A stretch of 64,000 bases of DNA from contig CAWEOJ010000002.1 in assembly GCA_963810625.1 (NCBI GenBank), positions 8,177 through 72,176 of the forward strand, in the 5' to 3' direction. Below are positions 8,884 through 56,059 of the stretch, one piece after another (position 1 is the first letter of the stretch; each line of letters opens with the position of its first letter). The translations under genes were made by a program, and so were the position numbers. Below the pieces are notes generated by a model that was not told the origin of the DNA, made no database searches, and was given only the letters and a program-made list of their open reading frames with translations. Source of the stretch: an uncultured Acidobacteriota bacterium (lineage in GTDB: Bacteria; Acidobacteriota; Terriglobia; Acidiferrales; UBA7541).

Positions 8884-8900
8884 TTCTTCCGGGGCCGCGT

Positions 8901-9503
8901 TCACGCCTGCTTCGGCGGCGCGCTTCCTGAAGGCAGTTCTACAAGCTCGATGAGGACTTTCCTTCCCTTCGCCGGCGCAAGTAAGAAATTCACGCGCGTC
9001 CCATCGGCGCCGGCGCGCGCGGCGGGATAAATGGGCGCGAGGCCGAATCGCCTGCGCAGAATCCGCGTCGCGCGGCCGATATCGCGCACGGGGATTTCGA
9101 TCTGTTGAATGCCTTCGCCGAATTTCCGCAGATACTGGGCGATGGCCCCGTTTCCATCCGGCTGCCGCGCCGCGAGGATGCCCAGCCGGACGCCCTCCGG
9201 GAAATCGAGGCCGAACTCCTCTACGTCATGTTCCGGCGGCACGTTCGCAAGGCGTGGGGATCCGTTCGCTGCGCGAATGCGTTCGAAGGTTTCCCGCTCC
9301 ACCGCAAGCCCCACCGCGATTCCCGGCGGCCATGATTTTGTATCGGCGTGGTCGAAGCCTGCGTTTGGAAATATGTCCGGATCGCGAAACCACTCCTCGA
9401 TCGCCGGCCGCGCAAGTTCGCGGCTGCGCTCGAAGATTTCCCGGGCCGCGCGTTGGCGCTCGGAAGGGTCCGCGCTGTGCAGGCTGCGGATGAGCGAAGC
9501 CAT
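8901..9503 (-). CDS. hypothetical protein with VOC/glyoxalase-like C-terminal half
   Basis: Start taken at MASLIRSLHS (CAT 9501-9503); composition is ordinary. Confidence 0.5.
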   Translation of the reverse strand: MASLIRSLHSADPSERQRAAREIFERSRELARPAIEEWFRDPDIFPNAGFDHADTKSWPPGIAVGLAVERETFERIRAANGSPRLANVPPEHDVEEFGLDFPEGVRLGILAARQPDGNGAIAQYLRKFGEGIQQIEIPVRDIGRATRILRRRFGLAPIYPAARAGADGTRVNFLLAPAKGRKVLIELVELPSGSAPPKQA

Positions 9504-9545
9504 GGCGGGGATTTCGGGCACGGGGAGCCTCACACGGAGAATTCG

Positions 9546-10421
9546 TCAGGGAGATGATGAGGGGGCGGGCGCGATGGCATTGACGTTTTCAAGCGCGATG
9601 CGCGCGGTCTCGCCCGGACGCACGGTCACAGGCACATCCCAGCGCAGCCGCACGTCGCCAACCGTGGCGGCCACGTCCAGCGTGCTCAGCCAATAATTTC
9701 CGGGAGGGATGCCGGCGAGGAAGCCTTCGCCTTGCAGGTTGGTTTCCGTGCGCGCCACCCGGTATTTCGATTGCGCCATCTCGAGCGTCAGGCGCTCGAT
9801 CTGAGGCGTCCGTTTCGCCTCGAGCGCCTGCCATTTCTCGCTCGGGTCAACGGCCGCAAGACCCAGATCAATCCCGTCAATGGTATCGGTATTGGCTTCC
9901 ATGAAGTGGCGAACCTGTTCCCGATATTCCGCCGAGAGCTTTTCGTATTTCGCCGGATCCTTCGTTTTATCCGAGGCCTTGAACTTCGGCTTCGGGAAAT
10001 TGACGGACTGGTCTCCAGAATTTCTCTCGAGATAGGCTTGGTAGAATTCCGGCACGGCCATCACGTCCGCCGGGTGCAGCTTGTGAATGAAGTCCTCCCC
10101 TTTGAAGGAAACGCAGTGGTTCTTTTTCATCCAGGCTTTCAATTCAGGGGAAACGTCGAGCGTGTCAATGAACGCATCCATATTGGGCTTTGGATACGCG
10201 GCGTTTGCTTGCTGCTGGATGTCTTCAAAGCTCCTGTTCAGAAGATAGAAGGGGAAGCCTCGCACCGGCTCTTCCACGCCGCTGGAGGGCGTGGCCCGGG
10301 CGGCGAATTCGATGGAGCCGTTTTGCGCGGCGGCGGGAAGCGTGGCCGCGACGGCCACAGCCGCAATGACCGCGGCGACGAGAACAACAGCGAAACCGAT
10401 GGCGCGTTTCATCCCGCTCAT
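9546..10421 (-). CDS. secreted protein with C-terminal carboxypeptidase-regulatory-like beta-sandwich
   Basis: Signal peptide MSGMKRAIGFAVVLVAAVIAAVAVAATLPAAAQ; C-terminal GIPPGNYWLSTLD...VTVRPGETARI. Confidence 0.6.
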   Translation of the reverse strand: MSGMKRAIGFAVVLVAAVIAAVAVAATLPAAAQNGSIEFAARATPSSGVEEPVRGFPFYLLNRSFEDIQQQANAAYPKPNMDAFIDTLDVSPELKAWMKKNHCVSFKGEDFIHKLHPADVMAVPEFYQAYLERNSGDQSVNFPKPKFKASDKTKDPAKYEKLSAEYREQVRHFMEANTDTIDGIDLGLAAVDPSEKWQALEAKRTPQIERLTLEMAQSKYRVARTETNLQGEGFLAGIPPGNYWLSTLDVAATVGDVRLRWDVPVTVRPGETARIALENVNAIAPAPSSSP

Positions 10422-45411: not shown

Positions 45412-47112
45412 TCACTGGATGTGCAGCTCAAAAGGAATGCGCGCCTCGACCGGCTCCATCACGCCGGCCAGGCGGCGGACCATGTCGGCGAGCGAGTGCG
45501 ATTCATCCGTGTCGTCCGTATCACGTTCGAAAAGCTGTTCGAGAAGACTTTTTCCCACGGGATAGCGCACGATGCGCACTTGCTGGTCCGCCGGAATGCC
45601 GGCAAGCTGCTTGGCCACTTCGATGGCGCGGTCGAATCCGCCCAGGTCGTCCACCAGGCCCAGCTTCTTGGCTTGCGCTCCGGACCATACGCGGCCTTGG
45701 CCGATGGCGTCCACGGCCTGGGGAGTCATGCCGCGTCCCTCGGCCACGTTGCGCGTGAATTCTCCGTACATTTCCTGGATGGAATTCTGGATGAAGGCGC
45801 GCTGCGCGGGCGTGAAATTCTGCTGGTCGGAAAAAAGCGTGGCGTTATCGCTGGTGGTCACGGAATCGGTGCTGACGCCCAGAAGGTTGTAAAGCCCGGA
45901 GAGATTCAGCTTGCCGATCACCACGCCGATCGAGCCTGTGATGGTATTCGGGTCGGCGACAATTTTATTGGCCTGCGCCGAAATCCAGTAGCCGCCGGAA
46001 GCGGCCACGTCGGACATGGAGACCACCACCGGTTTTGTTCCCTTCGCGAGCATCACCTCGCGCCGGATGGCCTCGCTTCCCACCACCGACCCGCCGCCCG
46101 AGTCCACGCGCAGGATGATGGCTTTGATGTCCGGATCTTGCCGCGCCGTGCGGATGTCGGAAGCCACCGAATCCCCGCCCATCACGAATCCGCCTTGGGG
46201 CGAGCTTTCCGAATCGCCGGACACGATTAGCCCGGTGGCGTGGACTACGGCGATTTTTTCGCCTCCGAAACCGTCGCTACCGTGGAATGCGAGGTAGCGC
46301 GGGAGCGAGATGGGATTCCAGACGCGGTCGCGGCTCTTGAAATAATCCTGCACCTGGTCCCAATACGCGAGGCGGTCCGCGATCCCGCTCCGGACGGCGT
46401 CGCTCGCCAGCAGCGGGCCGCGTTCGACAAGCGCTTCGAATTGGGCGCGGCTCATGTGGCGGCCCTCGGCTGCGTCGCCGACATACTGATTGTAAATGCT
46501 CTCGAGCAGCGACTCGACTTCCTCGCGGTGCTCGGGGGTGAATTTCTTCTCCGTAAACGTGTTGCCATAGGTCTTGTACTGCCCGGTGTGATAGAACTCC
46601 GGAACGATTTTCAGCTTGTCGAGCGTGCCGCGGAAGAAGAGCGCCTCCGCCATCATCCCCGTGATGTCCACGGGCGCCGTGGGCATCAGCCACACCTGCT
46701 GGCAGGCGCTGGCGAGATAATATTCGCGATTGGCGATGCCGTCGTAGCCCAGGTAGCAGATGCTGGGCTTGCCGCTTTTCTGAAACTCCGTGAGGTGTTC
46801 GCGGATTTCCTCGATCTTGGCCCAGCCGGTGTCCAGCGGCTCGATTTTTAGCACGATGCCGGTGATGCGCGGGTCGGTGCGCGCGGAGTCAATCGCGTCG
46901 AGATAGTCCTCGAGCACGGGCGTGGTCTGGCCCGTGAGCGAGCCCATAAGATCGAAAGGCTGCTGCTCCTCGATCTCGCCTTGCGCGTCAATTACCAGGA
47001 CGGATTTCGATTCGATCCGCGCCGGCTTCGACGATCTCCAGAAGAGGGCCACGAAAAATAGAATCACCAAGCAGATTACGATCGCCCGCCTTTTTCTCCA
47101 GGTCATCTCCAT
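45412..47112 (-). CDS. sppA: signal peptide peptidase SppA, 67K type (two S49 domains)
   Basis: 566 aa. N-terminal TM, tandem ClpP/crotonase-like halves, AASGGYWIS Ser motif. Confidence 0.85.
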   Translation of the reverse strand: MEMTWRKRRAIVICLVILFFVALFWRSSKPARIESKSVLVIDAQGEIEEQQPFDLMGSLTGQTTPVLEDYLDAIDSARTDPRITGIVLKIEPLDTGWAKIEEIREHLTEFQKSGKPSICYLGYDGIANREYYLASACQQVWLMPTAPVDITGMMAEALFFRGTLDKLKIVPEFYHTGQYKTYGNTFTEKKFTPEHREEVESLLESIYNQYVGDAAEGRHMSRAQFEALVERGPLLASDAVRSGIADRLAYWDQVQDYFKSRDRVWNPISLPRYLAFHGSDGFGGEKIAVVHATGLIVSGDSESSPQGGFVMGGDSVASDIRTARQDPDIKAIILRVDSGGGSVVGSEAIRREVMLAKGTKPVVVSMSDVAASGGYWISAQANKIVADPNTITGSIGVVIGKLNLSGLYNLLGVSTDSVTTSDNATLFSDQQNFTPAQRAFIQNSIQEMYGEFTRNVAEGRGMTPQAVDAIGQGRVWSGAQAKKLGLVDDLGGFDRAIEVAKQLAGIPADQQVRIVRYPVGKSLLEQLFERDTDDTDESHSLADMVRRLAGVMEPVEARIPFELHIQ

Positions 47113-47224
47113 TCACCTCGATGCGCGCCTTTCCTAAAAATTGCCGCGAGAAATACGGTAGCACCCCGGGACGAAAATGGGCAATCGAACCCGCCGCGCG
47201 GGTGGCGCCACCCTGGACCGAGGG

Positions 47225-47800
47225 CTACGCGGAAAAGCGCGGTAGAAAAAACCCCGTGTGGCGGCGATGCTCGTCGAAAGCCGGGCCGAATTCGCCCGCG
47301 AGCAGCGCTTCTTCTTTTTTGGCCTTAAACCCGAGGCCAATTACATTGATCGCAAGCACGGCGAGCGCACCATATGTCCCGGCCCAAAGGACCGTCCCGG
47401 CGATCCCCAAAAGGATGCCCGTATAGATGGGGTGACGTATGTGGGCGTAGGGTCCGCTGCGAATCAGTTCATGACCCTCGCGCAGAGAGACGCTCGCGCT
47501 CCAATACTTGCCGATGTGATTCCGCGCCCAAATGGCGAATGCGATTCCCGCGGCCGTGAGCGCGATTCCCAGCCATTTGATCCACGGCAGCGGCGGGACG
47601 AACCGCCGATTGGGGATTCCGAAGCGTTCGCCCGCGTGGATTAAAATGAAACAGCCCCCCGCCAAGATCAAGAGAAAACCCAGGCGCTGGCCCATGGGCT
47701 CTCTCTTGCGCATCTTGTTGACGCTCAGGCTCGCGGCGAGCCAGTAGAGCCAGAAAAAAATCCACAGCCCAGCCACAATGTGACTTTGAGTCAATTCCAT
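47225..47800 (-). CDS. isoprenylcysteine carboxyl methyltransferase (ICMT)-family membrane methyltransferase
   Basis: Start at MELTQSHIV; GPYAHIRHPIYTG...EEALLAGEFG. Confidence 0.75.
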   Translation of the reverse strand: MELTQSHIVAGLWIFFWLYWLAASLSVNKMRKREPMGQRLGFLLILAGGCFILIHAGERFGIPNRRFVPPLPWIKWLGIALTAAGIAFAIWARNHIGKYWSASVSLREGHELIRSGPYAHIRHPIYTGILLGIAGTVLWAGTYGALAVLAINVIGLGFKAKKEEALLAGEFGPAFDEHRRHTGFFLPRFSA

Positions 47801-48106
47801 GTTGGCCGCTCCTGTTCCGCGATAGTGGCACAACTCGGCATGTCTTGAAAAGCGCCGCCTCCCGTGGCTGATCCTTCCGGGTGCGGCCTATGTGACGTCG
47901 GGGCGCATCTAAAATCTCGTACACGAGTGCCACCCTTGAAATTCCGGGCAGCGTTGCCTGGCCAGGCGGCAGGGCGTAATGTACTGTTCCGGTCAACAAC
48001 TTGTACGGCATGTCCATTGACCTGAGGCGTAAGCCCCTCGTAATATTCTGGTTGCGTTCGGTTGGAGGCGGCGGCCTGTAGGATCACCCTCGGGCTGCCC
48101 TTGGGG

Positions 48107-49996
48107 ATGATAAAGAGACGAACGACAATTTGGGTCCTTCTGGCGGCGGGTGTGCTCGCGCTGCCCGGTTGCGACGAGACTGCCAAAAAAGAGGTGCATG
48201 TGCAGCCTCCGGCGGCGACGCCGAAGCCTGCTCCCGCGGAAGTGAGCGAGCCTCTTCCCTTGATCGAGGCTGGCTACCCGGCATGGTTTGCGCACGACCC
48301 CCGGCCGGCTATGGACATCCTGGTGGACCGCGTCCAGGCGGGTTTCGACGCGGGAGAGAAGGATTATCAGGCGGGCCATCTTGACAAGGCGCGCGCGGAT
48401 TTCGACGGCGCGGTGAACCTGATCCTCACCAGCGGTTTTCAGGGAGACTCCGACCCACGGCTTTCGAAGCTGTTCGACCAGATTGGCGATGCGGTCGCTT
48501 CGTACGGACTGGATGCCGACCAGGGCAGCGGAGACGAAGAATCGGAAACACCCTCCGAACCCGCTCCGATCGAGGAAATCGCGGACCTGACATTGCCGGC
48601 GGGCGATCCGCGCCTGGCGCTCAAGGCCGAAAGCGAATTGATTGGCGTTCCGCACGACCTGCCGCTCGCGGTGAATGATTCCGTCCTGCAATATCTGAGC
48701 TTTTTCACTACGGAGCGCGGCCGCGCCATCGTCGGGCGGGGGCTGGAGCGCGCCGGACGCTACAGCGACATGATCCGGCGCGTGCTGAAGGAAGAGGGCG
48801 TCCCGCAGGACTTGATCTATCTCGCGCAGGCGGAAAGCGCGTTCCTGCCGGATTCGGTTTCGCGCGCCGGGGCGCGTGGAATCTGGCAATTCATGCCCTA
48901 TCGGGGCGAAGAGTACGATCTCGAACGCAGCTATTGGGTGGACCAGCGCAGCGATCCGGAAATGGCCACGCGCGCGGCGGCCCGGCACCTTCGCGACCTT
49001 TATGAAATGTTCGGTGACTGGTATCTGGTGATGGCCGCGTATAACTCCGGCCCGCTGACCGTGGCCCGGGCTATCGAGCGCACCGGCTATGCCGATTTTT
49101 GGGAGCTGCAAAGGCTCCATGCCCTGCCGAAGCAAACGCAAAATTATGTCCCCATCATCATCGCCCTGGCGCTGGTGGCCAAGGACCCGGCGCTCTATGG
49201 CGTGCAATTCGACGCGGACAAGCCGCCGCAGGTGGAAACGGTTCGGCTCGAACACCCCGTCAGCCTGAGTCTTGCTGCGGATGCCACGGGCGCGGACCTC
49301 GATGATCTGCGGCTGCTCAACCCGGAACTTCTGCGGGGCGTCACTCCGGACCAACCCGGCTTCGAACTGAACCTGCCGGCGGGCACTGCCAGGAATTTCG
49401 AGGAAAACATCCAGCAGGTTCCCGAGGACAAGTGGACCACCTGGCGGCTGCATACTGTCGTGGAGGGAGAGACGCTTCCGGATATCGCCGAGCGCTATCG
49501 CGTCACTCTTCCGGCGCTCGAATCGGCCAATCATCTGGAGGCGCACGCTTCCGTGCCGGCGGGCTTCGTGCTGGACGTGCCGGCGGCGCCGCCCGTGATC
49601 CGGTTGGTCCATTATCGCGTTCAGCGCGACGACACGCTCGAAGGGATTGCGGACCGCTTCGACGTGACTGTGGCGGAACTCAAACGATGGAACCGCATCG
49701 CGGGTCATCACATGGCGCGCGGCATGCGGCTGAGGATTTATGCGGGCAGCGGCGACACGGCCGCGACATCGCGCGCCCCCTCGAAGCCGGTGCGGAGCTC
49801 CGGCTCGGCGGTGCGCAACGTGTCCACGCACGCTTCCGAAAAGTCGGACGCCCTCGAGCATCGCGTGAAGCCGGGCGAGACGCTCTATTCGATTGCGCGC
49901 GAGTATGGCACCACGGTTTCGGCCCTGCGCGAATCGAACCCGTTCCTCTCCGGGAGGCCGCTCGAGCCCGGCGATGTCCTGACCGTGCAACGCTAA
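48107..49996 (+). CDS. MltD-like lytic transglycosylase lipoprotein with three LysM domains
   Basis: Lipobox LALPGC; SLT motifs AQAESAF, GIWQFMP, AAYNSGP; LysM repeats HTVVEGETLPDIAERY, YRVQRDDTLEGIADRF, HRVKPGETLYSIAREY. Confidence 0.85.
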   Translation: MIKRRTTIWVLLAAGVLALPGCDETAKKEVHVQPPAATPKPAPAEVSEPLPLIEAGYPAWFAHDPRPAMDILVDRVQAGFDAGEKDYQAGHLDKARADFDGAVNLILTSGFQGDSDPRLSKLFDQIGDAVASYGLDADQGSGDEESETPSEPAPIEEIADLTLPAGDPRLALKAESELIGVPHDLPLAVNDSVLQYLSFFTTERGRAIVGRGLERAGRYSDMIRRVLKEEGVPQDLIYLAQAESAFLPDSVSRAGARGIWQFMPYRGEEYDLERSYWVDQRSDPEMATRAAARHLRDLYEMFGDWYLVMAAYNSGPLTVARAIERTGYADFWELQRLHALPKQTQNYVPIIIALALVAKDPALYGVQFDADKPPQVETVRLEHPVSLSLAADATGADLDDLRLLNPELLRGVTPDQPGFELNLPAGTARNFEENIQQVPEDKWTTWRLHTVVEGETLPDIAERYRVTLPALESANHLEAHASVPAGFVLDVPAAPPVIRLVHYRVQRDDTLEGIADRFDVTVAELKRWNRIAGHHMARGMRLRIYAGSGDTAATSRAPSKPVRSSGSAVRNVSTHASEKSDALEHRVKPGETLYSIAREYGTTVSALRESNPFLSGRPLEPGDVLTVQR

Positions 49997-50222: not shown

Positions 50223-50516
50223 ATGTTTCACGCCAAAATGCACGATGAGGAAGACGACGAATTGCCGCGTTACGAAGAGGAAGAAGAGGGACAGGAACAG
50301 CCGCAGGAGATCGTGGAAGAGGTGGAAGAGATTGTGATCGAGGAGGAGCCGGAACACAAAGCCCCGGCAGCTCCCGCCCCTCGCCGGCGCGCGCCGGCAC
50401 GCAAAGCGAAAAAGTCGAAGAAATCGAAAAAAACCCGCCCGAAAAAGAAGGCCAAGGGCAAGGCCAAAGCCAAAAAAGGGCGCGCGAAGAAGGGCGGAAA
50501 GCGCAGGAAGCGCTGA
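50223..50516 (+). CDS. small bipartite acidic/basic protein (Glu-rich N-terminal half, Lys/Arg-rich histone-H1-like tail)
   Basis: MFHAKMHDEEDDELPRYEEEEEGQEQPQEIVEEVEEIVIEEEPE...RKAKKSKKSKKTRPKKKAKGKAKAKKGRAKKGGKRRKR; has a good promoter and RBS. Confidence 0.6.
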   Translation: MFHAKMHDEEDDELPRYEEEEEGQEQPQEIVEEVEEIVIEEEPEHKAPAAPAPRRRAPARKAKKSKKSKKTRPKKKAKGKAKAKKGRAKKGGKRRKR

Positions 50517-50718
50517 CCGTCCTGCCGTCCTGGTTCTCCTCGGAAGATTGAATCGCGGCGGTGCGCCGCAGCCCGCCGGGCTTCCGGCGGGCAGTCTTGC
50601 GGGGATTTTCCTTCGCGCGATCCTCGATGTGCGCGCCGGAAGGCGCATCCGGCGTGTTTCCCATTTTGGAATCTTTCCCTTGCAGTAATCCGCTCTGGAT
50701 AGCTAGCATACGCGTTCG

Positions 50719-51516
50719 ATGCCGCTGGCCGTCGAACAGATACGGAGGATGCGCGGTGGAGCGCAGGCGCAACTGATGCGCTGCGCGGACGAAGCGTATT
50801 ACGTCGTGAAATTCCAAAACAATCCGCAGGGCGTTCGTATTCTGGCGAATGAATTGCTCGGAACACGTCTGGCCGCCCGCCTGGGCCTTCCCACGGCGGG
50901 TGCGGCTGTGGTCGAGGTGCGCGAGGAGCTGATCGAACACACCGATGAATTGGAAATTCAGCTGGGGCGCGGGCGCGCGCGGTGCAAGCCCGGGCTGCAA
51001 TTCGGCTCGCGCTATCCCGGCTCGCCCGCGGAAACCGTGGTCTACGATTTCCTTCCCGAGGAGCAGCTCCGCGCGTCGCCGAATCTTTCGGATTTCTGCG
51101 GCATGCTCGTCTTCGACAAATGGACCTGCAACACCAACGGCCGCCAGGCGGTCTTCTTCCGCGCGCGGAGCGAAGCCCCCTACCGTGCGCAGATGATCGA
51201 CCAGGGCTTCTGTTTCAATGCGGGAGAGTGGAATTTTCCTGATGCGCCGCTGCGCGGGCTGTATGCGCGGCACGGCGTCTATGCATCGGTGCGCGGGATC
51301 GAGTCCTTCGAGCCCTGGCTCGCGCGCATCGAAACGAAGATTTCGGAAGCCGCGCTCGAGGATGCCGCGAGCGAGATTCCCCCGGAGTGGTACAATTTCG
51401 ATCCGGACGCGCTCGAGCAGCTGCTGGAAAATCTCCTGCGGCGGCGCAATCGGGTCCGCGAACTGATTGTCTCGGCCTGGAAATCGTCGGCCGAGCCATT
51501 TCCCAACTGGAAGTGA
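50719..51516 (+). CDS. HipA-like / PI3-4-kinase-fold kinase family protein
   Basis: GGAQAQLMRC...YYVVKFQNNPQG (nucleotide-binding region and Lys), catalytic-loop-like FDKWTCNTNGRQ (D-x4-N), IDQGFCF (DxG metal site). Confidence 0.65.
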   Translation: MPLAVEQIRRMRGGAQAQLMRCADEAYYVVKFQNNPQGVRILANELLGTRLAARLGLPTAGAAVVEVREELIEHTDELEIQLGRGRARCKPGLQFGSRYPGSPAETVVYDFLPEEQLRASPNLSDFCGMLVFDKWTCNTNGRQAVFFRARSEAPYRAQMIDQGFCFNAGEWNFPDAPLRGLYARHGVYASVRGIESFEPWLARIETKISEAALEDAASEIPPEWYNFDPDALEQLLENLLRRRNRVRELIVSAWKSSAEPFPNWK

Positions 51517-51519
51517 ACC

Positions 51520-52320
51520 ATGCCCGAAGAACAGAAAAATTATTTCCGCTACCGCGTCCTGCGCTACACGCCGGACCCCATTCGCGATGAGTGGGTGAAT
51601 ATCGGAGTCGTGCTGGAACACACGGAAGGCGCGCGGCTGGCCGCGCGGCTCATCGAAGAGCCGGCCGAGCTCGCCCGTGTCCGCCGGCTGCACCCCCAGG
51701 CCGATGAAGCCTTGCTCCGCGCCCTGCCGGCGGAATTCGAGGCGCGGCTCGGCGCCCCGGCGGCCGAGGCCACGGCACACCTCGCCAAGCTCGACGACAC
51801 ATTATCAAATGCCTTGCAGTTCAGCCCGCAAAGGGCTCTCTATGCCGAGGATTTCGACGCCGAGCTCGACCGCCTCTTCCGCGACCACGTCGCGCCTCCG
51901 CCCCGCGCGCGCGGCGGGATTGCCGAAAGCACCCGCGCCTGGATCAAGGCGCGCATCAACGACGTTTTTCTCAGGCGCCGCGTTCCCCGGCTCGAGCGCA
52001 GCATCCGCGTGGACGAATTTACGCAGCCGGGCGATCCCCTGCGGCTCGATTACGGCTACCGCAATGGCGTGCGCGGCTATCTGCACGCCGTGGCCCTCGG
52101 CCGCGATCCCTCGCAGGCCAAGGTGTTGGCCTACACCGCCGAGCGCATCCGCGCGCGCCTGCCTCAATGCGAATTCACCGCCATCACCGAGGCCGGCCCC
52201 GCCCCCGGCAATCCCCGGCATCAGTTCATCGAGGGGCTGTTTAAGGAACAGAACATCGCCCTCGTCCCGCTCAATCACATCGAGCGCTTCGCCGAGGATC
52301 TCCGGCGTCGTCTTTCGTAG
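51520..52320 (+). CDS. DUF3037-family protein
   Basis: N-terminus YFRYRVLRYTPDPIRDEWVNIGVVL is the DUF3037 hallmark as I recall it. Starts 3 nt after the kinase stop. Confidence 0.65.
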   Translation: MPEEQKNYFRYRVLRYTPDPIRDEWVNIGVVLEHTEGARLAARLIEEPAELARVRRLHPQADEALLRALPAEFEARLGAPAAEATAHLAKLDDTLSNALQFSPQRALYAEDFDAELDRLFRDHVAPPPRARGGIAESTRAWIKARINDVFLRRRVPRLERSIRVDEFTQPGDPLRLDYGYRNGVRGYLHAVALGRDPSQAKVLAYTAERIRARLPQCEFTAITEAGPAPGNPRHQFIEGLFKEQNIALVPLNHIERFAEDLRRRLS

Positions 52321-52457: not shown

Positions 52458-53309
52458 TTAATGAGGACCACTCACTGACTTCTGCCGGTCGGTGATAGAG
52501 GGAGAAGGTACCGCAGACGGCTCCGCCAACACTGGATGCAGGCTCGTGAGCATTCGCTTGAGTTCGGATTGTGAGAGCTTAATGTTGTCCTTCAAGGTCG
52601 CGCAGATAATCTCGACGTGATGGCCTCCCATGCCAAACACTTCGAGGTCCACGCGCGTCGATTTATGTGGATCACCGATTTGAAACCCGCGCTTGTCTGG
52701 CAACTCAAACGAAAACACTCCCGTTCCTAAACTGGAAGGAGTGGCGATGGCTTTTATCGTCAGAAGCGTCATCCCGCGAACCGCCTCAGCTCGCGGCCCA
52801 AAGGCTCGAACACTCTGGGGCGTCGTGTACAAGAGCGCAGCTTGTTGGTCATACGCCGAACGGTTCATCAAATCGCCAAACACGGGCCGCCAATTCTCCA
52901 TGTGCATGGACGGATCCTGCACGAGCTCGGTCAGCAGTCCGCTCTGGTTCGTGGGCACAATGAAAGTCACACTTTGTCCCGATTCAAACTCAAGCTGCAC
53001 GATGCCATTGCCTGCCTTTTGCCTGGAGATCCCATTCCATGGCACCTCGAACTCGTAGCCGAAATACGAAATTTCAGTCCCCGGCGCATCGGACACGGAG
53101 TAATCCACGAGCGGCTGGGGTGCGACCTTTACGCCTGGAAATTTCCTGGCTTCACGTCTCGCCATGAAGAATATCGTGATTGGAGGCGCAACAAGTTTGA
53201 TCAGAAAAATTACGATTGCGAAAAGTACCGCCACGCGCGCGAACGCGCCTAGGACTCGTCTACCCAGCGATATCCGCTCCCAGGAAGTAACGTGAGTGAG
53301 CGCCGACAC
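52458..53309 (-). CDS. membrane-anchored hypothetical protein
   Basis: GTG start, one N-terminal TM (VAVLFAIVIFLIKLVAPPITIFF); locally lower GC. Confidence 0.55.
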   Translation of the reverse strand: MSALTHVTSWERISLGRRVLGAFARVAVLFAIVIFLIKLVAPPITIFFMARREARKFPGVKVAPQPLVDYSVSDAPGTEISYFGYEFEVPWNGISRQKAGNGIVQLEFESGQSVTFIVPTNQSGLLTELVQDPSMHMENWRPVFGDLMNRSAYDQQAALLYTTPQSVRAFGPRAEAVRGMTLLTIKAIATPSSLGTGVFSFELPDKRGFQIGDPHKSTRVDLEVFGMGGHHVEIICATLKDNIKLSQSELKRMLTSLHPVLAEPSAVPSPSITDRQKSVSGPH

Positions 53310-53408: not shown

Positions 53409-54545
53409 TTAAGACGCGATCGCGCCCCAGGAAGGGACCTCTCTCTTGCCGAGAAGAACCTCTGCGGCCCATGCACTTAGATAAACCGAAAGTGCCACGC
53501 CATGCCCCGCATAAGCGCCGAGGACAATTCCATTGCTGTGCTCCGGATGCCGATCGAACACCGGCCTCCAGCTATCGCGGAAAAGAATCGGCCCGCCCCA
53601 CTGATGCGTGAATTGGGCGTTGGCGAGCGCCGGATGCAACCCCCGTATCCGCTTCTCAAGCTTCGCAAACATTCGCACCGGCTCTTCCGACGCAATATCA
53701 ACATCCCGCAGATCGCCCGAAGCCGGCTCGGTCACGAGTCCCGCGCCCCACACAATCGAGTTGTCCCGCCTCGCGCGCCCCCAGAGATACGGAAAATCCA
53801 CGGTATAAAACGGTCTTCGGTGAAAAAGCCCGGCGGCCTCAAGCTGCTCCTCGCGAAACGGAGCGGTCGCAGCAGCCAGGGTCAGTCGCGGATGCGTCGT
53901 GTGGCCCAGCCCCGAAAGCGGGAGCGAAAGCGCGTTCGTCGCGAACAAAATTTTGCCGGCGCGTATTTTCCCCGGCCGCGCGCCTGCGAATTCGATTTCC
54001 GTGGGTTCGCCCCCATGAACGCGCCCCACCCGCGCTTCCTCGACGATGACCGTCCCCAGTCGGTGCGCCGCGCGCGCCAGTCCGCTCACGAGTTTTCCCG
54101 GATCGAGTGTGCCGCCTGGAACTTCATTCACCACCCGCAGAGTTCCTGAATCCTGCCACGCAATCGGCGAATTTTCCATGCCGCCGCTGCGCCCGATTTC
54201 CCACGCGCCCGGAAGCCCGAGATCGCATTCGACGCCTAGCTTCCCCAAAATATTTTTCAGCCCGGCGAGGACATCGCCCAAATCCGGAAAATCGCCCGCG
54301 GCCGTCTCCGCGAGGACCATGCCGCCCGTCCGCCCGCTCGCGCCCGCGCCGATGCGCCCGGCCTCGAACACCGCAACGGATTTTTCAGGCGCAAGCAGCC
54401 GCAGCCACGCCGCGGCAGCCAGTCCCGTGAATCCGCCGCCGATCACGGCGAAGTCCACGGCCTGCGAGTTAGCCTGCTTGGGCGGCTGGAAATCAATCCG
54501 CCAGGGCGGAGCGCCCCAGATATCGCGCGCGGCAGGAGAGGTCAT
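53409..54545 (-). CDS. FAD-dependent oxidoreductase (DAO family)
   Basis: DFAVIGGGFTGLAAAAWL dinucleotide-binding motif; 378 aa. Confidence 0.8.
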   Translation of the reverse strand: MTSPAARDIWGAPPWRIDFQPPKQANSQAVDFAVIGGGFTGLAAAAWLRLLAPEKSVAVFEAGRIGAGASGRTGGMVLAETAAGDFPDLGDVLAGLKNILGKLGVECDLGLPGAWEIGRSGGMENSPIAWQDSGTLRVVNEVPGGTLDPGKLVSGLARAAHRLGTVIVEEARVGRVHGGEPTEIEFAGARPGKIRAGKILFATNALSLPLSGLGHTTHPRLTLAAATAPFREEQLEAAGLFHRRPFYTVDFPYLWGRARRDNSIVWGAGLVTEPASGDLRDVDIASEEPVRMFAKLEKRIRGLHPALANAQFTHQWGGPILFRDSWRPVFDRHPEHSNGIVLGAYAGHGVALSVYLSAWAAEVLLGKREVPSWGAIAS

Positions 54546-54669
54546 GGAAGGAAAGAGGAAAATGTCGGATGCTTTACCACCTCGTCGAAGAATGGGAGAG
54601 GTTTGTAGGTTGCGGCTTTAGCCGCCACGAAAAGCCTGCAAAATTAGCGGGGCTTTCGCGCCTTTTGCG

Positions 54670-54690
54670 TCCCGATGGTTTGTATCGGGA
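54670..54690 (+). repeat. short hairpin REP (CCCGAT-N7-ATCGGG family), copy 4, inside a larger repeat (54601-54710) shared with 25761-25850
   Basis: gcgccttttgcgTCCCGATggtttgtATCGGGA. The upstream gtaggttgcggctttagccgccacgaaaagcctgcaaaat matches gtaggtcgtggctttagccacgacgaaagccttgcaaaat at ~25761. Confidence 0.6.
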
Positions 54691-54730
54691 AGCCCCTGAA
54701 GTTCCCCCAAATCAGTTCTTCGGCAATCCG

Positions 54731-56059
54731 CTACAAAATACTCTCGGTCCAATGCTCGAGCGTCTGCTTAACCTTGCCCATGAATTGGTGGGCGATGGCG
54801 CCGTCCACGGCGCGGTGATCGTAGGAAAGCGTCAGGTAAACCATCGAGCGGATGGCGATGGCGTCCTCCACCACCACGGGCCGCTTCTCGATCGCGCCCA
54901 GTCCCAGGATAGCCACGTTCGGCTGATTGATCACCGGCAGGCCAAACAGCCCGCCGAACACGCCGGGGTTGGTGATCGAAAACGTGCTCTCCGCCACTTC
55001 CTCGGGCTTGAGCTTCTTCGACCGCGCGCGCTCGGCCAGGTCGTTCACCGCCCGCGCCAGCCCCAGAAAATTTTTCTCCTCGGCGTCCTTGATCACTGGC
55101 ACGATCAGGCCCCAGTCAAGCGCCACGGCGATGCCGATATTGCACTCCTTGTGCAGCACGATGTTCGTGCCGTCCACCGATGCATTCACCGTGGGGTATG
55201 CGCGCAGCCCCTCGACCGCCGCGCGGATGAAGAATGGCATGAACGAGAGCTTCGTGCCCGTCGTCTGTTCGAATTGTTCCTTCGACCTGGCGCGCAGCAC
55301 GGCCACCCCGGTGACGTCCACTTCCTCCACCGAATAGACGTGCGGCGAAACGCGCTTCGAGAGCACCATATGCTCGGCGATCCGCTGGCGCATCACGGAC
55401 ATGGGCTGCACTTCGTAGTGGCCGAAGTAAATTTTCTCGCGCGGCACCGCTGTCTCGAGCGTCGCATGCGCGGCCGCTGCGCCTGTTGCTGGGCGAGCGC
55501 CTGCCCCGCCGCCTTCGACTGCGGCGAGGATGTCCCGCTTGCTCACGCGGCCTCCCGCTCCGGTCCCGGGCACTTGCGTCAAATCAATTTTGTGCTCGCG
55601 CGCGATGCGCCGCACGAGCGGCGAGCTGCGCACTTTTTGGCCGTTGCCTCCGGCCACTGCCCGCTGGGCTGCGGGAACCGCCGCCGCAGGCGTCGCGGAC
55701 GGGGGCGGCGCGGAACCCGCTGGCTTCGCGGCTTCCGGCTTGGCCGTGCTGGGGGCGGGCTTCGGCGCTTCGCCCTTTGCGGGCGAGGGCGCGGGAGACG
55801 GGGCCGCGGCGGCGCTCGCGCCTGCAGCGTCAATCACCGCCACGACTGTTTGCACTGGCACGGTCTGCCCTTCGCTGACCTTGATCTCCTTCAGCACTCC
55901 GGCGGTCGGCGCGGGAATTTCCGCGTCCACCTTGTCGGTCGAAATCTCGAAGAGCGGCTCATCCCGCTCGATTTTGTCGCCCGGCTTCTTGAGCCATTTC
56001 GTGATGGTGCCTTCGAAAATGCTCTCGCCCATTTGGGGCATGATGACGTCTACAGCCAT
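54731..56059 (-). CDS. 2-oxoacid dehydrogenase E2 (dihydrolipoamide acyl/succinyltransferase)
   Basis: Lipoyl domain EISTDKVDAEIPAP, Ala/Pro linkers, E3-binding domain, catalytic DHRAVDG. Confidence 0.88.
   Translation of the reverse strand: MAVDVIMPQMGESIFEGTITKWLKKPGDKIERDEPLFEISTDKVDAEIPAPTAGVLKEIKVSEGQTVPVQTVVAVIDAAGASAAAAPSPAPSPAKGEAPKPAPSTAKPEAAKPAGSAPPPSATPAAAVPAAQRAVAGGNGQKVRSSPLVRRIAREHKIDLTQVPGTGAGGRVSKRDILAAVEGGGAGARPATGAAAAHATLETAVPREKIYFGHYEVQPMSVMRQRIAEHMVLSKRVSPHVYSVEEVDVTGVAVLRARSKEQFEQTTGTKLSFMPFFIRAAVEGLRAYPTVNASVDGTNIVLHKECNIGIAVALDWGLIVPVIKDAEEKNFLGLARAVNDLAERARSKKLKPEEVAESTFSITNPGVFGGLFGLPVINQPNVAILGLGAIEKRPVVVEDAIAIRSMVYLTLSYDHRAVDGAIAHQFMGKVKQTLEHWTESIL

What the first reader, a model, noticed from the sequence alone, without database searches (positions are those of the whole stretch)
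50719..52320. Translationally coupled HipA-like kinase + DUF3037 two-gene module of unknown function
ORF 50719-51516 has kinase-fold hallmarks in the HipA / PI3-4-kinase style. These are GGAQAQL followed by YYVVKF (Lys), a catalytic-loop-like FDKWTCNTNGRQ (D-x4-N) and IDQGFCF (DxG). It lacks the DNA-binding partner typical of hipBA. Its stop (TGA 51514-51516) is followed after 3 nt by ATG 51520 of a 266-aa protein. That protein's N-terminus, YRVLRYTPDPIRDEWVNIGVVL, matches what I remember as the DUF3037 signature. From memory, and unverified here, these two families are frequently neighbours in diverse bacteria, yet no function is established. The module lies between a highly charged small protein and a lower-GC, oppositely oriented membrane-protein gene, so the context looks accessory. 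A kinase toxin or sensor with a DUF3037 partner (TA-like or defence-like) is a reasonable hypothesis.
Basis: partly seen in the sequence, partly recalled or inferred. Interest (0 to 1): 0.65.

Follow-up and report, generated by a model that had tools for sequence, protein, structure and literature searches.

The report
Atypical HipA-like kinase–DUF3037 gene pair
This is a real two-gene module of a family recently shown to defend bacteria against phages (HipA-like kinase plus DUF3037 partner), but here it belongs to an undescribed branch whose kinase lacks the usual catalytic aspartate, whose partner carries a nuclease-like domain, and which is inherited as a fixed chromosomal gene pair across a whole order of soil Acidobacteriota.

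Summary
ORF1 matches HipA_2 (PF20613) and folds like CtkA/HipA/PI4K-II. ORF2 has an N-terminal DUF3037 domain (PF11236). The pairing holds in 76/80 related genomes, 59/80 metagenomic loci and 31/35 viral contigs.

The statement that no function is established is out of date. The pair is PADLOC candidate PDC-M66. Homologues (E. coli DS-6/HipAD and the Retron-Sda1 pair) are validated toxin-antitoxin-like anti-phage systems.

The window pair belongs to a distinct type 2 branch:
- Asn140 occupies the position of the catalytic Asp (HipA D309, DS-6A D139), and the following loop is replaced by invariant GRQ. The ATP-binding residues are kept.
- The partner has a restriction-endonuclease-like C-terminal domain with near-invariant D172, D177, K201 and E224. 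It shows no sequence similarity to the DS-6B C-terminus.
- The context is not accessory. The pair has fixed synteny, host-like GC3 and dN/dS of 0.09-0.24, as low as housekeeping neighbours, across Ca. Acidiferrales.
- The sister clade mostly sits between terminase and portal genes of prophage-like clusters.

Verdict: known kind, new variant. Catalytic competence and biological role are open.

The parts
50680..50718 (+). Conserved promoter-like element directly before the kinase start: TTGCAG (50680-50685), 18 nt, TAGCAT (50704-50709), 9 nt, ATG. There is no Shine-Dalgarno sequence, which suggests the pair has its own, nearly leaderless transcript. A further conserved block (TTCCC.atTTGaAAtgTTTc) lies at about 50658-50678 and could be an operator.
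   Evidence: Sequence. The element was seen in 4 syntenic loci and is conserved at 60-90% per position over 61 Acidiferrales loci anchored on the ATG. The generic sigma-70 scan does not call it, so its function is inferred only.
50719..51516 (+). Type-2 HipA_2-family kinase-fold protein, 265 aa.
   Evidence: Pfam HipA_2 E=6e-14. PADLOC PDC-M66A E=7e-11. phrog_3162 E=1.4e-15. hhalign to validated DS-6A: probability 98%, E=1.9e-13, 34% identity over 195 columns. Foldseek: CtkA 1.5e-4, HipA, Fam20C, PI4KIIa, HipT. dN/dS 0.09-0.14.
50755..50811 (+). Nucleotide-binding elements: the Gly-rich loop G13-G14-A15-Q16 (compare HipA AGAQ) and the beta3 lysine K31 (codon 50809-50811). The alphaC glutamate E45 follows at 50851-50853.
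   Evidence: K31 and E45 are invariant or near-invariant across type 1 and type 2. HipA K181 and the AGAQ context were read from the E. coli sequence.
51115..51147 (+). Remodelled catalytic loop D133-K-W-T-C-N138-T-N140-G-R142-Q143. Asn140 occupies the catalytic-Asp position, the 7-residue loop carrying the downstream Asn in type 1 is deleted, and GRQ is invariant.
   Evidence: Alignments with DS-6A, the P. syringae plasmid kinase and viral type-1 kinases. Profile alignment to S. oneidensis HipA (FNLLTGNAD-AHGKN) and PI4KIIbeta (LDYIIRNTD--RGNDN). Position 140 is N in 145 and D in 4 of 149 unique type-2 kinases, and D in 16/16 type-1 kinases.
51199..51201 (+). D161 (IDQG), the equivalent of the metal-binding 'DFG' Asp (HipA D332).
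   Evidence: Invariant in type 1 and type 2.
51514..51522 (+). Gene junction TGA-ACC-ATG (3-nt spacer), compatible with translational coupling.
   Evidence: The same 3-nt gap is found in 52 of 80 Acidiferrales loci. Type-1 pairs mostly overlap by 4 nt. Coupling itself was not tested.
51550..51891 (+). DUF3037 domain of the partner (residues 11-124). This is the part shared with DS-6B/HipD and is the presumed kinase-binding or neutralising module.
   Evidence: Pfam DUF3037 E=5.5e-16. PDC-M66B E=5e-10, residues 9-126. hhalign to DS-6B covers residues 7-128 only, probability 97.7%. R15, Y16, P18, G29 and R53 are near-invariant in 144 partners. The binding role is inferred from AF3 and genetics reported for homologues (PMC13092281, PMC12548924).
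51919..52317 (+). C-terminal restriction-endonuclease-like (PD-(D/E)xK-fold) domain of the partner (residues 134-266), with conserved D172, D177, K201 and E224. It has no Pfam family.
   Evidence: AF2 model pLDDT 82.8 with topology a-bbb-a-b-a-b-a. Foldseek PDB: BstEII 7e-4, Avs4 nuclease domain, NucS, Card1/VC1899, EcoO109I, XPF/Mus81. BFVD: restriction endonucleases, PD-(D/E)XK, RecB-family. No Pfam hit in 31 diverse members. Conservation: D172 144/144, D177 144/144, K201 140/144, E224 141/144 as E or D. It occurs with type-2 kinases only (151/151 against 0/16).
50223..50516 (+). Conserved upstream neighbour, probably a separate transcription unit: a 97-aa protein with an acidic N-terminal half and a Lys-rich tail. 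A GC-rich hairpin follows at 50571-50592 (GCCCGCCGG-GCTT-CCGGCGGGC).
   Evidence: Orthologues with the same N-terminus (MF..K.HDEEDDELPRYEEEE) sit at the same position in L001, L002, L003 and L005. It was detected in 32/80 loci by tblastn, which is an undercount because the sequence is low-complexity. No family hit. Whether it belongs to the module was not tested.

Best explanation
The locus encodes a two-protein module of the HipA_2/DUF3037 family (PADLOC PDC-M66; E. coli DS-6, renamed HipAD). It belongs to a distinct, co-evolved 'type 2' branch.

Shown here:
- ORF1 is a HipA/PI4K-II-type kinase-fold protein. It keeps the ATP/Mg-binding residues (GGAQ loop, K31, E45, D161). It carries Asn140 where HipA, PI4KII and DS-6A have the catalytic Asp, followed by an invariant GRQ in place of the loop that supplies the second Asn.
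- ORF2 is a DUF3037 domain fused to a restriction-endonuclease-fold domain with a conserved D-D-K-E constellation.
- The two genes are almost always adjacent. In the order-level lineage Ca. Acidiferrales they are vertically inherited at one chromosomal site under strong purifying selection. The sister clade is mostly embedded between terL and portal in prophage-like clusters.

Inferred, by homology with DS-6 and Sda1, where the kinase is required for defence and loss of the DUF3037 gene is toxic:
- The DUF3037 domain binds and restrains the kinase-fold subunit.
- The nuclease-fold domain contacts nucleic acid, either for autoregulation at the conserved upstream element or for sensing or cleavage.
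- A phage-derived cue releases the effector activity, causing growth arrest or interference with infection.

Because the canonical catalytic base is missing, the output of the type-2 kinase subunit is most likely one of two things. It may be weak or atypical phosphotransfer. Alternatively it may act as an ATP-dependent switch, with the partner's nuclease-like domain as a candidate effector.
For: Family membership. Kinase fold. Co-occurrence: 79/80 by tblastn; 76/80, 59/80 (12 more lack upstream sequence) and 31/35 by ORF/HMM. A conjugative plasmid example is flanked by IS91 and ParA. Two co-evolved types: (151/151 and 16/16). Catalytic-residue mapping. Nuclease-fold C-domain with conserved acidic and Lys residues. 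Vertical inheritance and selection. Phage link of the sister clade (TerL phrog_2 5.7e-25, portal PF04860 2e-54). Experimental behaviour of homologues: PMC13092281 (DS-6A D139A loses defence; AF3 A-B ipTM 0.76-0.79; DS-6B-DNA ipTM 0.67) and PMC12548924 (deleting HipA abolishes defence; deleting DUF3037 is toxic).
Against: No experiment exists for any type-2 pair. The validated systems are type 1 (DS-6) or look like type 1 (Sda1, judged from its P-loop only). Asn at the catalytic position may mean there is no kinase activity, and therefore no kinase toxin. Order-wide fixed synteny with housekeeping-level dN/dS is unusual for a defence or TA module. The pair is not in a defence island. The AF2 model of the kinase is poor around the catalytic loop (pLDDT below 50 for residues 128-142), so the residue mapping rests on sequence and profile alignments. 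Complex formation and DNA binding were not modelled here. The D-D-K-E site is not a canonical PD-(D/E)xK motif.
Confidence: 0.5

Rival explanations
1. Canonical reading. ORF1 is a fully active Ser/Thr kinase toxin that uses D133 as catalytic base and N138 as the +5 Asn. ORF2 is simply its antitoxin. The pair is an ordinary HipAD-type abortive-infection system.
For: K31, E45, D133, N138 and D161 are invariant across type 1 and type 2, and D133-x4-N138 has the canonical kinase spacing. Homologues are kinase-dependent defence systems (PMC13092281, PMC12548924). The 4 type-2 sequences with Asp at position 140 show that the site tolerates Asp.
Against: Profile alignments to S. oneidensis HipA and PI4KIIbeta place D133 and N138 in the helix before the catalytic loop (FNLLTGN, LDYIIRN), and place the catalytic Asp at window position 140. 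DS-6A also has D132 and N137, yet D139A alone abolishes defence (PMC13092281 supplement). E. coli HipA has Gln at the D133-equivalent position.
Confidence: 0.2
2. Domesticated module with a non-defence, housekeeping or regulatory role in Acidiferrales. A pseudokinase acts as an ATP sensor and is paired with a nuclease-fold or DNA-binding protein. It may be functionally tied to the invariably adjacent MltD-like SLT/LysM transglycosylase and small charged protein (cell-envelope or nucleoid control).
For: Same chromosomal site in 71-79 of 80 species-level genomes. Kinase identity (median 75%) is at least that of the core E2 enzyme (74%). dN/dS is 0.09-0.14. GC3 is host-like. A conserved non-coding element lies upstream. 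The catalytic Asp is lost but the ATP-binding residues are kept. No mobile or defence genes are nearby.
Against: The sister clade shares the same Asn/GRQ loop and partner domain, and 35 of its 44 long loci have a portal-family gene nearby (32 have terL). So the atypical features did not arise with domestication. Every characterised relative is a conflict system. Adjacency to SLT/LysM is limited to this lineage. No functional link to neighbours was tested.
Confidence: 0.22
3. Decaying remnant of a prophage or TA module with no current function.
For: The sister clade is prophage-embedded. A few MAGs show truncated or split kinase ORFs (L007, L015, L021, L025).
Against: Both genes are intact and full length, with dN/dS of 0.09-0.24 over dS up to about 1.4. 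Dozens of residues are invariant. The spacing and the upstream element are conserved. The split ORFs were seen in only 4 of 80 MAG loci and could be assembly frameshifts (not checked).
Confidence: 0.03

Closest known systems
DS-6 / HipAD of E. coli (DS-6A WP_000389051.1 + DS-6B WP_000210934.1; DeWeirdt et al., PMC13092281; Brenes & Laub 2025, not held in the library)
   Same: Same gene order (kinase, then DUF3037 protein), tight junction and similar sizes (249+275 aa against 265+266 aa). The kinases are homologous over about 195 residues (probability 98%, 34% identity). The DUF3037 domains are homologous (probability 97.7%). Both lack HipB. The same PHROG families are hit.
   Different: DS-6A has the catalytic Asp (D139, mutated to abolish defence) in NADR plus a GGNxN loop, whereas the window has NTN140-GRQ with that loop deleted. 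The C-terminal halves of the partners show no sequence similarity. DS-6 is prophage- or island-borne in E. coli, whereas the window pair is a fixed chromosomal locus. No experiment exists for the window type.
PADLOC candidate system PDC-M66 (A: HipA-like, B: DUF3037)
   Same: Both window proteins hit the two models (E=7e-11 and 5e-10). 30 of 31 diverse type-2 partners hit PDC-M66B.
   Different: The hits cover only the N-terminal half of each model (kinase residues 12-138; partner residues 9-126 of a 281-position model). The models represent the type-1 architecture.
HipA-like/DUF3037 pair inside Retron-Sda1 (PMC12548924)
   Same: A two-gene HipA-like + DUF3037 unit that works on its own. Deleting the kinase abolishes defence against Bas51, and deleting DUF3037 is toxic (TA-like logic).
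   Different: Sda1 is associated with an HTH gene and a retron RT/ncRNA. Its DUF3037 C-terminus resembles the type III-A1 retron DNA-binding protein. Its P-loop region (KLGGSTKP) looks like type 1 (the sequence is truncated in the held file, so the loop could not be checked).
HipBA toxin-antitoxin (E. coli HipA/HipB; S. oneidensis HipA, PDB 4pu5)
   Same: Same kinase superfamily and fold. The equivalents of K181, D332 and the AGAQ loop are retained.
   Different: There is no HipA N-terminal domain (265 aa against 440 aa) and no HipB or HTH antitoxin. The D309 equivalent is Asn and the N314 equivalent is absent. HipA_C scores below its cutoff (E=0.036).
Pseudokinases and atypical kinases that keep ATP binding but lack the catalytic Asp (for example HER3, HRD to HRN; Fam20A). 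Recalled from memory.
   Same: Asn replaces the catalytic-loop Asp while the Lys, Glu and 'DFG' Asp are kept. Fam20A and Fam20C are among the Foldseek hits.
   Different: Unrelated families. Nothing is known about nucleotide binding or activity here. This is an analogy only.
HipA-family kinases in structural modules of 'Gratiaviridae' gut phages (Benler et al., 10.1101/2020.10.07.330464)
   Same: A HipA-family kinase gene sits among late or head genes (there, between portal and MCP), proposed to act in superinfection immunity. The window's sister clade lies between terL and portal.
   Different: The partner genes differ (AAA ATPase and glycosyltransferase, no DUF3037), as do the hosts. Homology to the window kinase was not tested.

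Membership tests
HipA_2 kinase family (Pfam PF20613; clan with HipA_C/PI3_PI4_kinase) | Significant match to the family HMM above the gathering score | tested here: met
   E=6.2e-14, 52.3 bits against a cutoff of 27. Only profile positions 4-121 of 240 are matched.
HipA_2 kinase family (Pfam PF20613; clan with HipA_C/PI3_PI4_kinase) | Protein-kinase-like fold of the HipA/CtkA/PI4K-II type | tested here: met
   Foldseek hits: CtkA 3akk E=1.5e-4, Fam20C, HipA 2wiu/3dnt, S. oneidensis HipA 4pu4, PI4KIIa, HipT, at probability 0.98-1.0. The model's pLDDT is only 66.5, and its C-lobe is poor.
HipA_2 kinase family (Pfam PF20613; clan with HipA_C/PI3_PI4_kinase) | Catalytic-loop Asp (HipA D309 / DS-6A D139) and the following metal-binding Asn | tested here: not met
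   Window position 140 is Asn (N in 145/149 type-2 kinases, D in 16/16 type-1). The loop carrying the second Asn is replaced by GRQ.
HipA_2 kinase family (Pfam PF20613; clan with HipA_C/PI3_PI4_kinase) | ATP/Mg-binding residues: Gly-rich loop, beta3 Lys, alphaC Glu, 'DFG' Asp | tested here: met
   GGAQ 13-16, K31, E45 and D161 are invariant or near-invariant.
DUF3037 (Pfam PF11236) | Full-length match to the domain HMM | tested here: met
   E=5.5e-16, residues 11-124 against profile positions 1-118 of 118. 31/31 diverse relatives match.
HipAD / DS-6 / PDC-M66 two-gene defence system | HipA-like kinase gene immediately followed by a DUF3037 gene on the same strand, conserved across genomes | tested here: met
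   79/80; 76/80, 59/80 and 31/35; plasmid example.
HipAD / DS-6 / PDC-M66 two-gene defence system | Both proteins homologous to the validated DS-6A and DS-6B | tested here: inconclusive
   The kinase is homologous (probability 98%). The partner is homologous in the DUF3037 domain only. The C-terminal domains are unrelated by sequence (probability 0.5%), although both are suggested to be PDDEXK-like (DS-6B by HHpred DUF1829 at probability 0.78; the window by Foldseek).
HipAD / DS-6 / PDC-M66 two-gene defence system | Kinase activity required for defence; partner neutralises toxicity; protection against phage | not testable with these tools
   Experimental properties reported only for type-1 homologues (PMC13092281, PMC12548924).
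HipAD / DS-6 / PDC-M66 two-gene defence system | Location on mobile elements, prophages or defence islands, with patchy distribution | tested here: not met
   The window pair has fixed synteny among housekeeping genes, host-like GC3, and no phage or defence genes nearby. The criterion is met by most of the sister clade (prophage-like clusters) and by the plasmid copy.
HipBA type II TA | HipB (HTH) antitoxin gene adjacent; HipA N-terminal domains present | tested here: not met
   No HTH gene flanks the pair. The protein is 265 aa. HipA_C gives E=0.036, below its cutoff.
PD-(D/E)xK nuclease superfamily (C-terminal domain of ORF2) | alpha-beta-beta-beta-alpha-beta core fold | tested here: met
   AF2 topology. 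Foldseek PDB and BFVD hits are dominated by restriction endonucleases, NucS, XPF/Mus81, Card1 and RecB-family proteins. Whole-protein TM scores are low (0.2-0.37), because only one domain matches.
PD-(D/E)xK nuclease superfamily (C-terminal domain of ORF2) | Canonical D...(D/E)-x-K catalytic motif in beta2/beta3 | tested here: inconclusive
   D172 and D177 (at beta2), K201 (start of the next helix) and E224 (end of beta4) are near-invariant, but there is no (D/E)xK in beta3. The arrangement recalls the permuted Cfr10I-type D...xK...E site (from memory). No Pfam PDDEXK family is hit. Activity was not tested.

The most novel reading that the evidence does not exclude
Type-2 HipA_2/DUF3037 pairs are not kinase-toxin/antitoxin systems. 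The kinase-fold subunit has become an ATP-binding pseudokinase (Asn for the catalytic Asp, GRQ loop). It regulates, or is regulated by, a partner whose restriction-endonuclease-fold domain (D172, D177, K201, E224) is the real effector or sensor. This version originated in, or was exchanged with, tailed prophages, where most sampled copies sit between terL and portal. It was then domesticated as a core, vertically inherited gene pair of the soil order Ca. Acidiferrales. That would be a rare case of a phage-conflict module turned into a lineage-wide housekeeping function.
Probability: 0.3. Interest if true: 0.72.

Novelty: new variant of a known kind. Interest (0 to 1): 0.5.

Why it matters
HipA-like kinase plus DUF3037 (HipAD/DS-6, PDC-M66) was validated as a defence system only recently, and its mechanism and target are unknown. 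This locus shows that the family has a second, abundant architecture. That architecture was found in 422 species-level genomes in one scan and in more than 588 metagenomic loci in another.

In this architecture the residue used to make DS-6 kinase-dead is naturally Asn, and the partner carries a different, nuclease-fold domain with a conserved acidic/Lys site. That gives a natural experiment on which parts of the system are essential. It also suggests the partner may be more than an antitoxin.

The order-wide fixed synteny under housekeeping-level selection, next to a mostly prophage-embedded sister clade, makes this a tractable case for asking how conflict systems are retained or domesticated in the poorly studied Acidobacteriota. 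If the pair turns out to be an ordinary weak kinase TA, the finding reduces to a new subfamily annotation.

Tried and rejected
- **NCBIfam:** no hit for either protein.
- **Sequence search of the PDB:** close-homologue profiles gave only chance hits. Only the mixed type-1 plus type-2 profile reached HipA and PI4KII.
- **'HipAD' literature search:** it returned anthropometry papers. Brenes & Laub 2025 is not in the library. The Payne 2024 preprint does not mention the system.
- **Phage and plasmid records:** tblastn of the partner found nothing in 50,697 phage records and one plasmid. The phage link came only from metagenomic and IMG/VR contigs.
- **Partner C-terminal domain as DUF1829, as annotated for DS-6B:** rejected at the sequence level. 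There is no Pfam hit at E up to 1 in 31 members, and hhalign probability to the type-1 C-domains is 0.5%.
- **Window pair inside a prophage:** rejected. No terminase, portal or other cluster genes are present in the window or in 85 related loci.
- **Acidiferrales clade nested within the phage clade (direct evidence of domestication):** not supported. The two clades are reciprocally monophyletic sisters in a simple NJ tree, so the direction of transfer is unresolved.
- **Generic sigma-70 promoter scan:** negative.
- **Sda1 kinase type:** could not be determined because the stored operon sequence is truncated.
- **AF2 model of the kinase:** unreliable at the catalytic loop, so no structural statement about Asn140 is made.
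Full report
**1. Observation**

The window contains ORF 50719-51516 (+, 265 aa) and ORF 51520-52320 (+, 266 aa). They are separated by TGA-ACC-ATG. All quoted motifs are present.

ORF1 matches Pfam HipA_2 (PF20613, E=6e-14, above the gathering score). ORF2 matches DUF3037 (PF11236, E=5.5e-16, full domain, residues 11-124). NCBIfam has no model for either protein.

The flanks are as described. Upstream is a 97-aa acidic/basic ORF at 50223-50516. Downstream, on the opposite strand, is a 283-aa ORF at 52458-53309 with lower GC.

**2. The pair is a known kind of system**

PADLOC-DB matches the two proteins to the two components of candidate system PDC-M66 (A: E=7e-11; B: E=5e-10). Two papers in the held library give function for homologous pairs.

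- *PMC12548924.* A HipA-like/DUF3037 pair located inside Retron-Sda1 defends E. coli against phage Bas51 independently of the retron. Deleting the kinase abolishes defence, and deleting the DUF3037 gene is toxic. The authors note the strong DUF3037-HipA association and the PDC-M66 label.
- *PMC13092281.* E. coli DS-6 (renamed HipAD, discovered independently by Brenes & Laub 2025) is a validated defence system. A predicted catalytic mutant of DS-6A loses defence. AlphaFold3 predicts an A-B complex, with weaker support for DS-6B binding DNA.

Its TA-like or defence hypothesis anticipated what was later found for relatives.

**3. Co-occurrence**

A pattern scan of one genome per species found 422 genomes with a relative of ORF2. 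The best 80 (59-97% identity) are almost all Acidobacteriota, Terriglobia or Ca. Acidiferrales MAGs.

| Sample | Kinase immediately upstream |
|---|---|
| Acidiferrales genomes, tblastn | 79/80 (the exception is a contig end) |
| Acidiferrales genomes, ORF/HMM | 76/80 (identical 3-nt gap in 52) |
| More distant metagenomic loci | 59/80 (12 more lack upstream sequence) |
| IMG/VR viral contigs | 31/35 |

A conjugative P. syringae plasmid carries an annotated 'HipA family kinase' gene overlapping a 'DUF3037' gene by 4 nt, between IS91 copies and parA.

**4. Kinase fold and direct comparison with the validated system**

The AF2 model of ORF1 has pLDDT 66.5, with a good N-lobe and a poor catalytic-loop region. 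It retrieves CtkA, Fam20C, HipA, S. oneidensis HipA, PI4KIIalpha, HipT and HopBF1.

The DS-6A and DS-6B sequences, and the identity of the kinase-dead mutation (D139A), were taken from the supplements of PMC13092281. Profile comparison shows ORF1 is homologous to DS-6A (probability 98%, E=1.9e-13, 34% identity over 195 columns). ORF2 aligns to DS-6B only over the DUF3037 domain (probability 97.7%).

**5. The catalytic loop is atypical**

The motifs around the catalytic loop align as follows.

| Protein | Motif |
|---|---|
| DS-6A | VFD132KWILN137AD139R-TLTDKGG-N148VN150 |
| P. syringae plasmid kinase | FDYWVGNGDRQLGPLGGRPNLL |
| Window ORF1 | VFD133KWTCN138TN140-GRQ143 (7 residues missing) |

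Across 172 kinase ORFs there are two sharply separated types.

- **Type 1** has FDxWxxNxDR...GGNxNL. It comprises DS-6A, the plasmid kinase and 15 viral contigs.
- **Type 2** has DKWxxNxNGRQ. It comprises the window, all 80 Acidiferrales loci, the metagenomic group and 16 viral contigs. Four type-2 sequences have N[AC]DGRQ, which supports the positional equivalence.

A mixed type-1 plus type-2 profile aligns 'fDkwilNadR' to S. oneidensis HipA 'FNLLTGNAD-AHGKN' (E=0.004). It aligns the same stretch to PI4KIIbeta 'LDYIIRNTD--RGNDN' (E=0.16, weak on its own but congruent). E. coli HipA reads FQWLIGATD309GHAKN314 (numbering verified).

Window Asn140 therefore occupies the position of the catalytic Asp.

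Conservation in 149 unique type-2 kinases:

| Position(s) | Conservation |
|---|---|
| K31, D133, K134, W135, N138, G141, R142, Q143, D161 | essentially 100% |
| E45 | E or D |
| 140 | N in 145, D in 4 (type 1: D in 16/16) |

The extreme conservation of the remodelled loop argues for a functional site rather than decay. Canonical base-assisted phosphotransfer is doubtful. The alternative, that D133 acts as the base, cannot be excluded without a structure or biochemistry, and it is kept as a rival.

**6. The partner's second domain**

The AF2 model of ORF2 (pLDDT 82.8) has two domains joined by a disordered linker at residues 127-136. The C-terminal domain (134-266) has an alpha-beta-beta-beta-alpha-beta-alpha-beta-alpha topology.

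Foldseek against the PDB returns restriction-endonuclease-like folds: BstEII at 7e-4, the Avs4 nuclease domain, NucS, VC1899/Card1, EcoT38I, EcoO109I, BbvCI and XPF/Mus81. BFVD returns two phage proteins of similar length (2e-12 and 5e-10). After those come a DUF1828-domain protein, restriction endonucleases, PD-(D/E)XK, endonuclease I and RecB-family nucleases.

No Pfam family matches this domain in 31 diverse members. In 144 unique type-2 partners, D172 and D177 are invariant, K201 is present in 140, and position 224 is E or D in 141.

The 'DUF1829' of DS-6B was a weak HHpred hit (probability 0.78) to a PDDEXK-clan family. The type-1 and type-2 C-domains have no detectable sequence similarity (hhalign probability 0.5%).

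Kinase type and partner domain co-vary perfectly in this sample: type 2 with this domain in 151/151, and type 1 without it in 16/16.

**7. Genomic context**

The context contradicts 'accessory'. In other Acidobacteriota genomes the order is SLT/LysM transglycosylase, small charged ORF, kinase, DUF3037, then DAO and the E2 of a 2-oxoacid dehydrogenase on the opposite strand.

Presence across the 80 loci:

| Gene | Present in |
|---|---|
| SLT/LysM | 71 |
| E2 | 56 |
| DAO | 44 |
| 283-aa membrane ORF | 0 |

GC3 of the pair (0.76 and 0.81) matches its neighbours. Median identity to the window, over 26 loci with all five genes, is 75% for the kinase, 74% for E2, 67% for the partner, 66% for SLT and 64% for DAO.

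dN/dS (NG86, four comparisons):

| Gene | dN/dS |
|---|---|
| Kinase | 0.09-0.14 |
| Partner | 0.11-0.24 |
| E2 | 0.07-0.15 |
| SLT | 0.16-0.19 |
| DAO | 0.17-0.23 |
| SppA | 0.21-0.24 |

A non-coding element directly upstream of the kinase ATG is conserved in 61 loci. It reads TTGCAG, 18 nt, TAGCAT, 9 nt, ATG, with no Shine-Dalgarno sequence. The generic sigma-70 scan does not call it.

**8. The sister clade is phage-embedded**

Outside Acidiferrales I examined 44 type-2 loci of at least 9 kb. Their kinases are 53-61% identical to the window, and their partners 30-38%. Most of them share a different conserved synteny: a large ORF, a roughly 520-aa ORF (present in 32 of the 44), kinase, DUF3037, a roughly 430-aa ORF (present in 35 of the 44), and about eight more genes on the same strand. 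A few loci (for example L133, L137, L158, L164) lack this cluster.

In the representative locus L127 the flanking genes are a large terminase subunit (phrog_2, E=5.7e-25) and a portal protein (PF04860, E=2e-54; phrog_12). A head-tail adaptor (phrog_442) lies downstream. Several of these loci lie on contigs of 0.3-0.6 Mb, so they are prophages or phage-derived clusters.

None of these genes occurs in the window or in the 85 related loci.

In an NJ tree rooted with type 1, the Acidiferrales clade (79 sequences) and the metagenome/viral clade (72) are reciprocally monophyletic. The direction of transfer is therefore unresolved. Sampling is also biased by the search patterns I used.

A precedent for HipA-family kinases inside phage late modules exists in 'Gratiaviridae' (10.1101/2020.10.07.330464). 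I found no paper in the held library describing the Asn variant.

**9. Mechanism**

*Shown:* family membership, the kinase fold, the conserved pairing, the two co-evolved architectures, the substitution at the catalytic position, the nuclease-like fold with a conserved polar site, vertical inheritance under purifying selection, and the phage association of the sister clade.

*Inferred from homologues:* the DUF3037 domain binds and restrains the kinase-fold protein, the module responds to phage infection, and the partner contacts DNA.

*Open:* whether the type-2 kinase phosphorylates anything, whether the nuclease-fold domain is catalytic, and whether the Acidiferrales copy still serves defence or has another role.

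I put 0.5 on a type-2 HipAD-like conflict module with an atypical or weak kinase output. I put 0.2 on a canonical active kinase TA, 0.22 on a domesticated non-defence role, and 0.03 on a relic.

**10. Verdict**

This is a real feature of a known kind (HipA_2 + DUF3037; PDC-M66/HipAD). It belongs to a new, abundant variant that is not described in the literature I could search.

Interest is moderate at 0.5. The basic pairing and its defence role are already published. The naturally 'kinase-dead-like' loop, the distinct nuclease-fold partner domain, the order-wide chromosomal fixation and the terL-portal placement of the sister clade are new and directly testable.

Noticed in passing
window 50223-50516 (+): A 97-aa protein with a strongly acidic N-terminal half (MFHAKMHDEEDDELPRYEEEEE...) and a Lys/Arg-rich tail (KKSKKSKKTRPKKKAKGKAKAKK...). 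It is conserved at the same position, between the SLT/LysM gene and the kinase, in related genomes. It has no family hit, and a GC-rich hairpin follows at 50571-50592. Whether it is a third component of the module is unknown.
   Followed up: partly
window 52458-53309 (-): A 283-aa ORF with one N-terminal hydrophobic segment and lower GC (0.55; GC3 0.63). It is absent from all 80 related loci, including the 97%-identical genome L006, which has about 900 bp of different sequence at this spot. This looks like a strain-specific insertion at a variable site between the DUF3037 gene and DAO. No Pfam, NCBIfam, PADLOC or PHROG hit.
   Followed up: partly
L127 1-15406 (also L088-L183; for example L124, L125, L098, L146, L175): A conserved prophage-like head/tail gene cluster in soil and peat metagenomes. 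A type-2 kinase + DUF3037 pair is inserted between the large terminase and the portal gene, preceded by a 1000-1700-aa ORF with no family hit. Most of the other cluster genes have no Pfam or PHROG annotation. Whether the pair is a moron or part of the element's biology is unknown.
   Followed up: partly
L007, L015, L021, L025 (kinase region about 8900-9990): In a few Acidobacteriota MAGs the kinase appears as short or split ORFs (103-152 aa) while the DUF3037 gene is intact. This could be assembly frameshifts or genuine loss of the kinase gene.
   Followed up: no
L018, L057 (Verrucomicrobiia), L048, L052 (Dormiibacterota), L074 (Baltobacteraceae), L044 (Polarisedimenticolia): Contigs labelled with non-Acidiferrales taxa carry the same SLT-kinase-DUF3037 synteny at 64-69% partner identity. 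They all come from one MAG series (SMAG). This is probably binning contamination rather than horizontal transfer.
   Followed up: no
window 50640-50718 and the equivalent positions in 61 loci: The non-coding sequence upstream of the kinase (TTCCC.atTTGaAAtgTTTc.CTTGc...GCTAGCATACGCGC.CGATG) is conserved across genomes whose proteins are only 65-80% identical. It is a candidate promoter plus operator for autoregulation, with a leaderless start.
   Followed up: partly
L086 7243-8795 (P. syringae pv. avii plasmid PP4, NZ_LT963406.1): A type-1 HipA-family kinase/DUF3037 pair on a conjugative plasmid, next to two IS91 transposases, a RelE/ParE toxin gene and parA. This is a typical mobile TA or defence context and contrasts with the window.
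   Followed up: yes
window 45412-49996 and 53409-56059: The neighbouring genes are ordinary housekeeping functions: SppA signal-peptide peptidase, an ICMT-family methyltransferase, an MltD-like SLT + LysM lytic transglycosylase, a DAO-family FAD oxidoreductase, and the E2 of a 2-oxoacid dehydrogenase complex. The closest genome is MAG MFD09286.bin.2.102 (uncultured Acidobacteriota; L006).
   Followed up: yes
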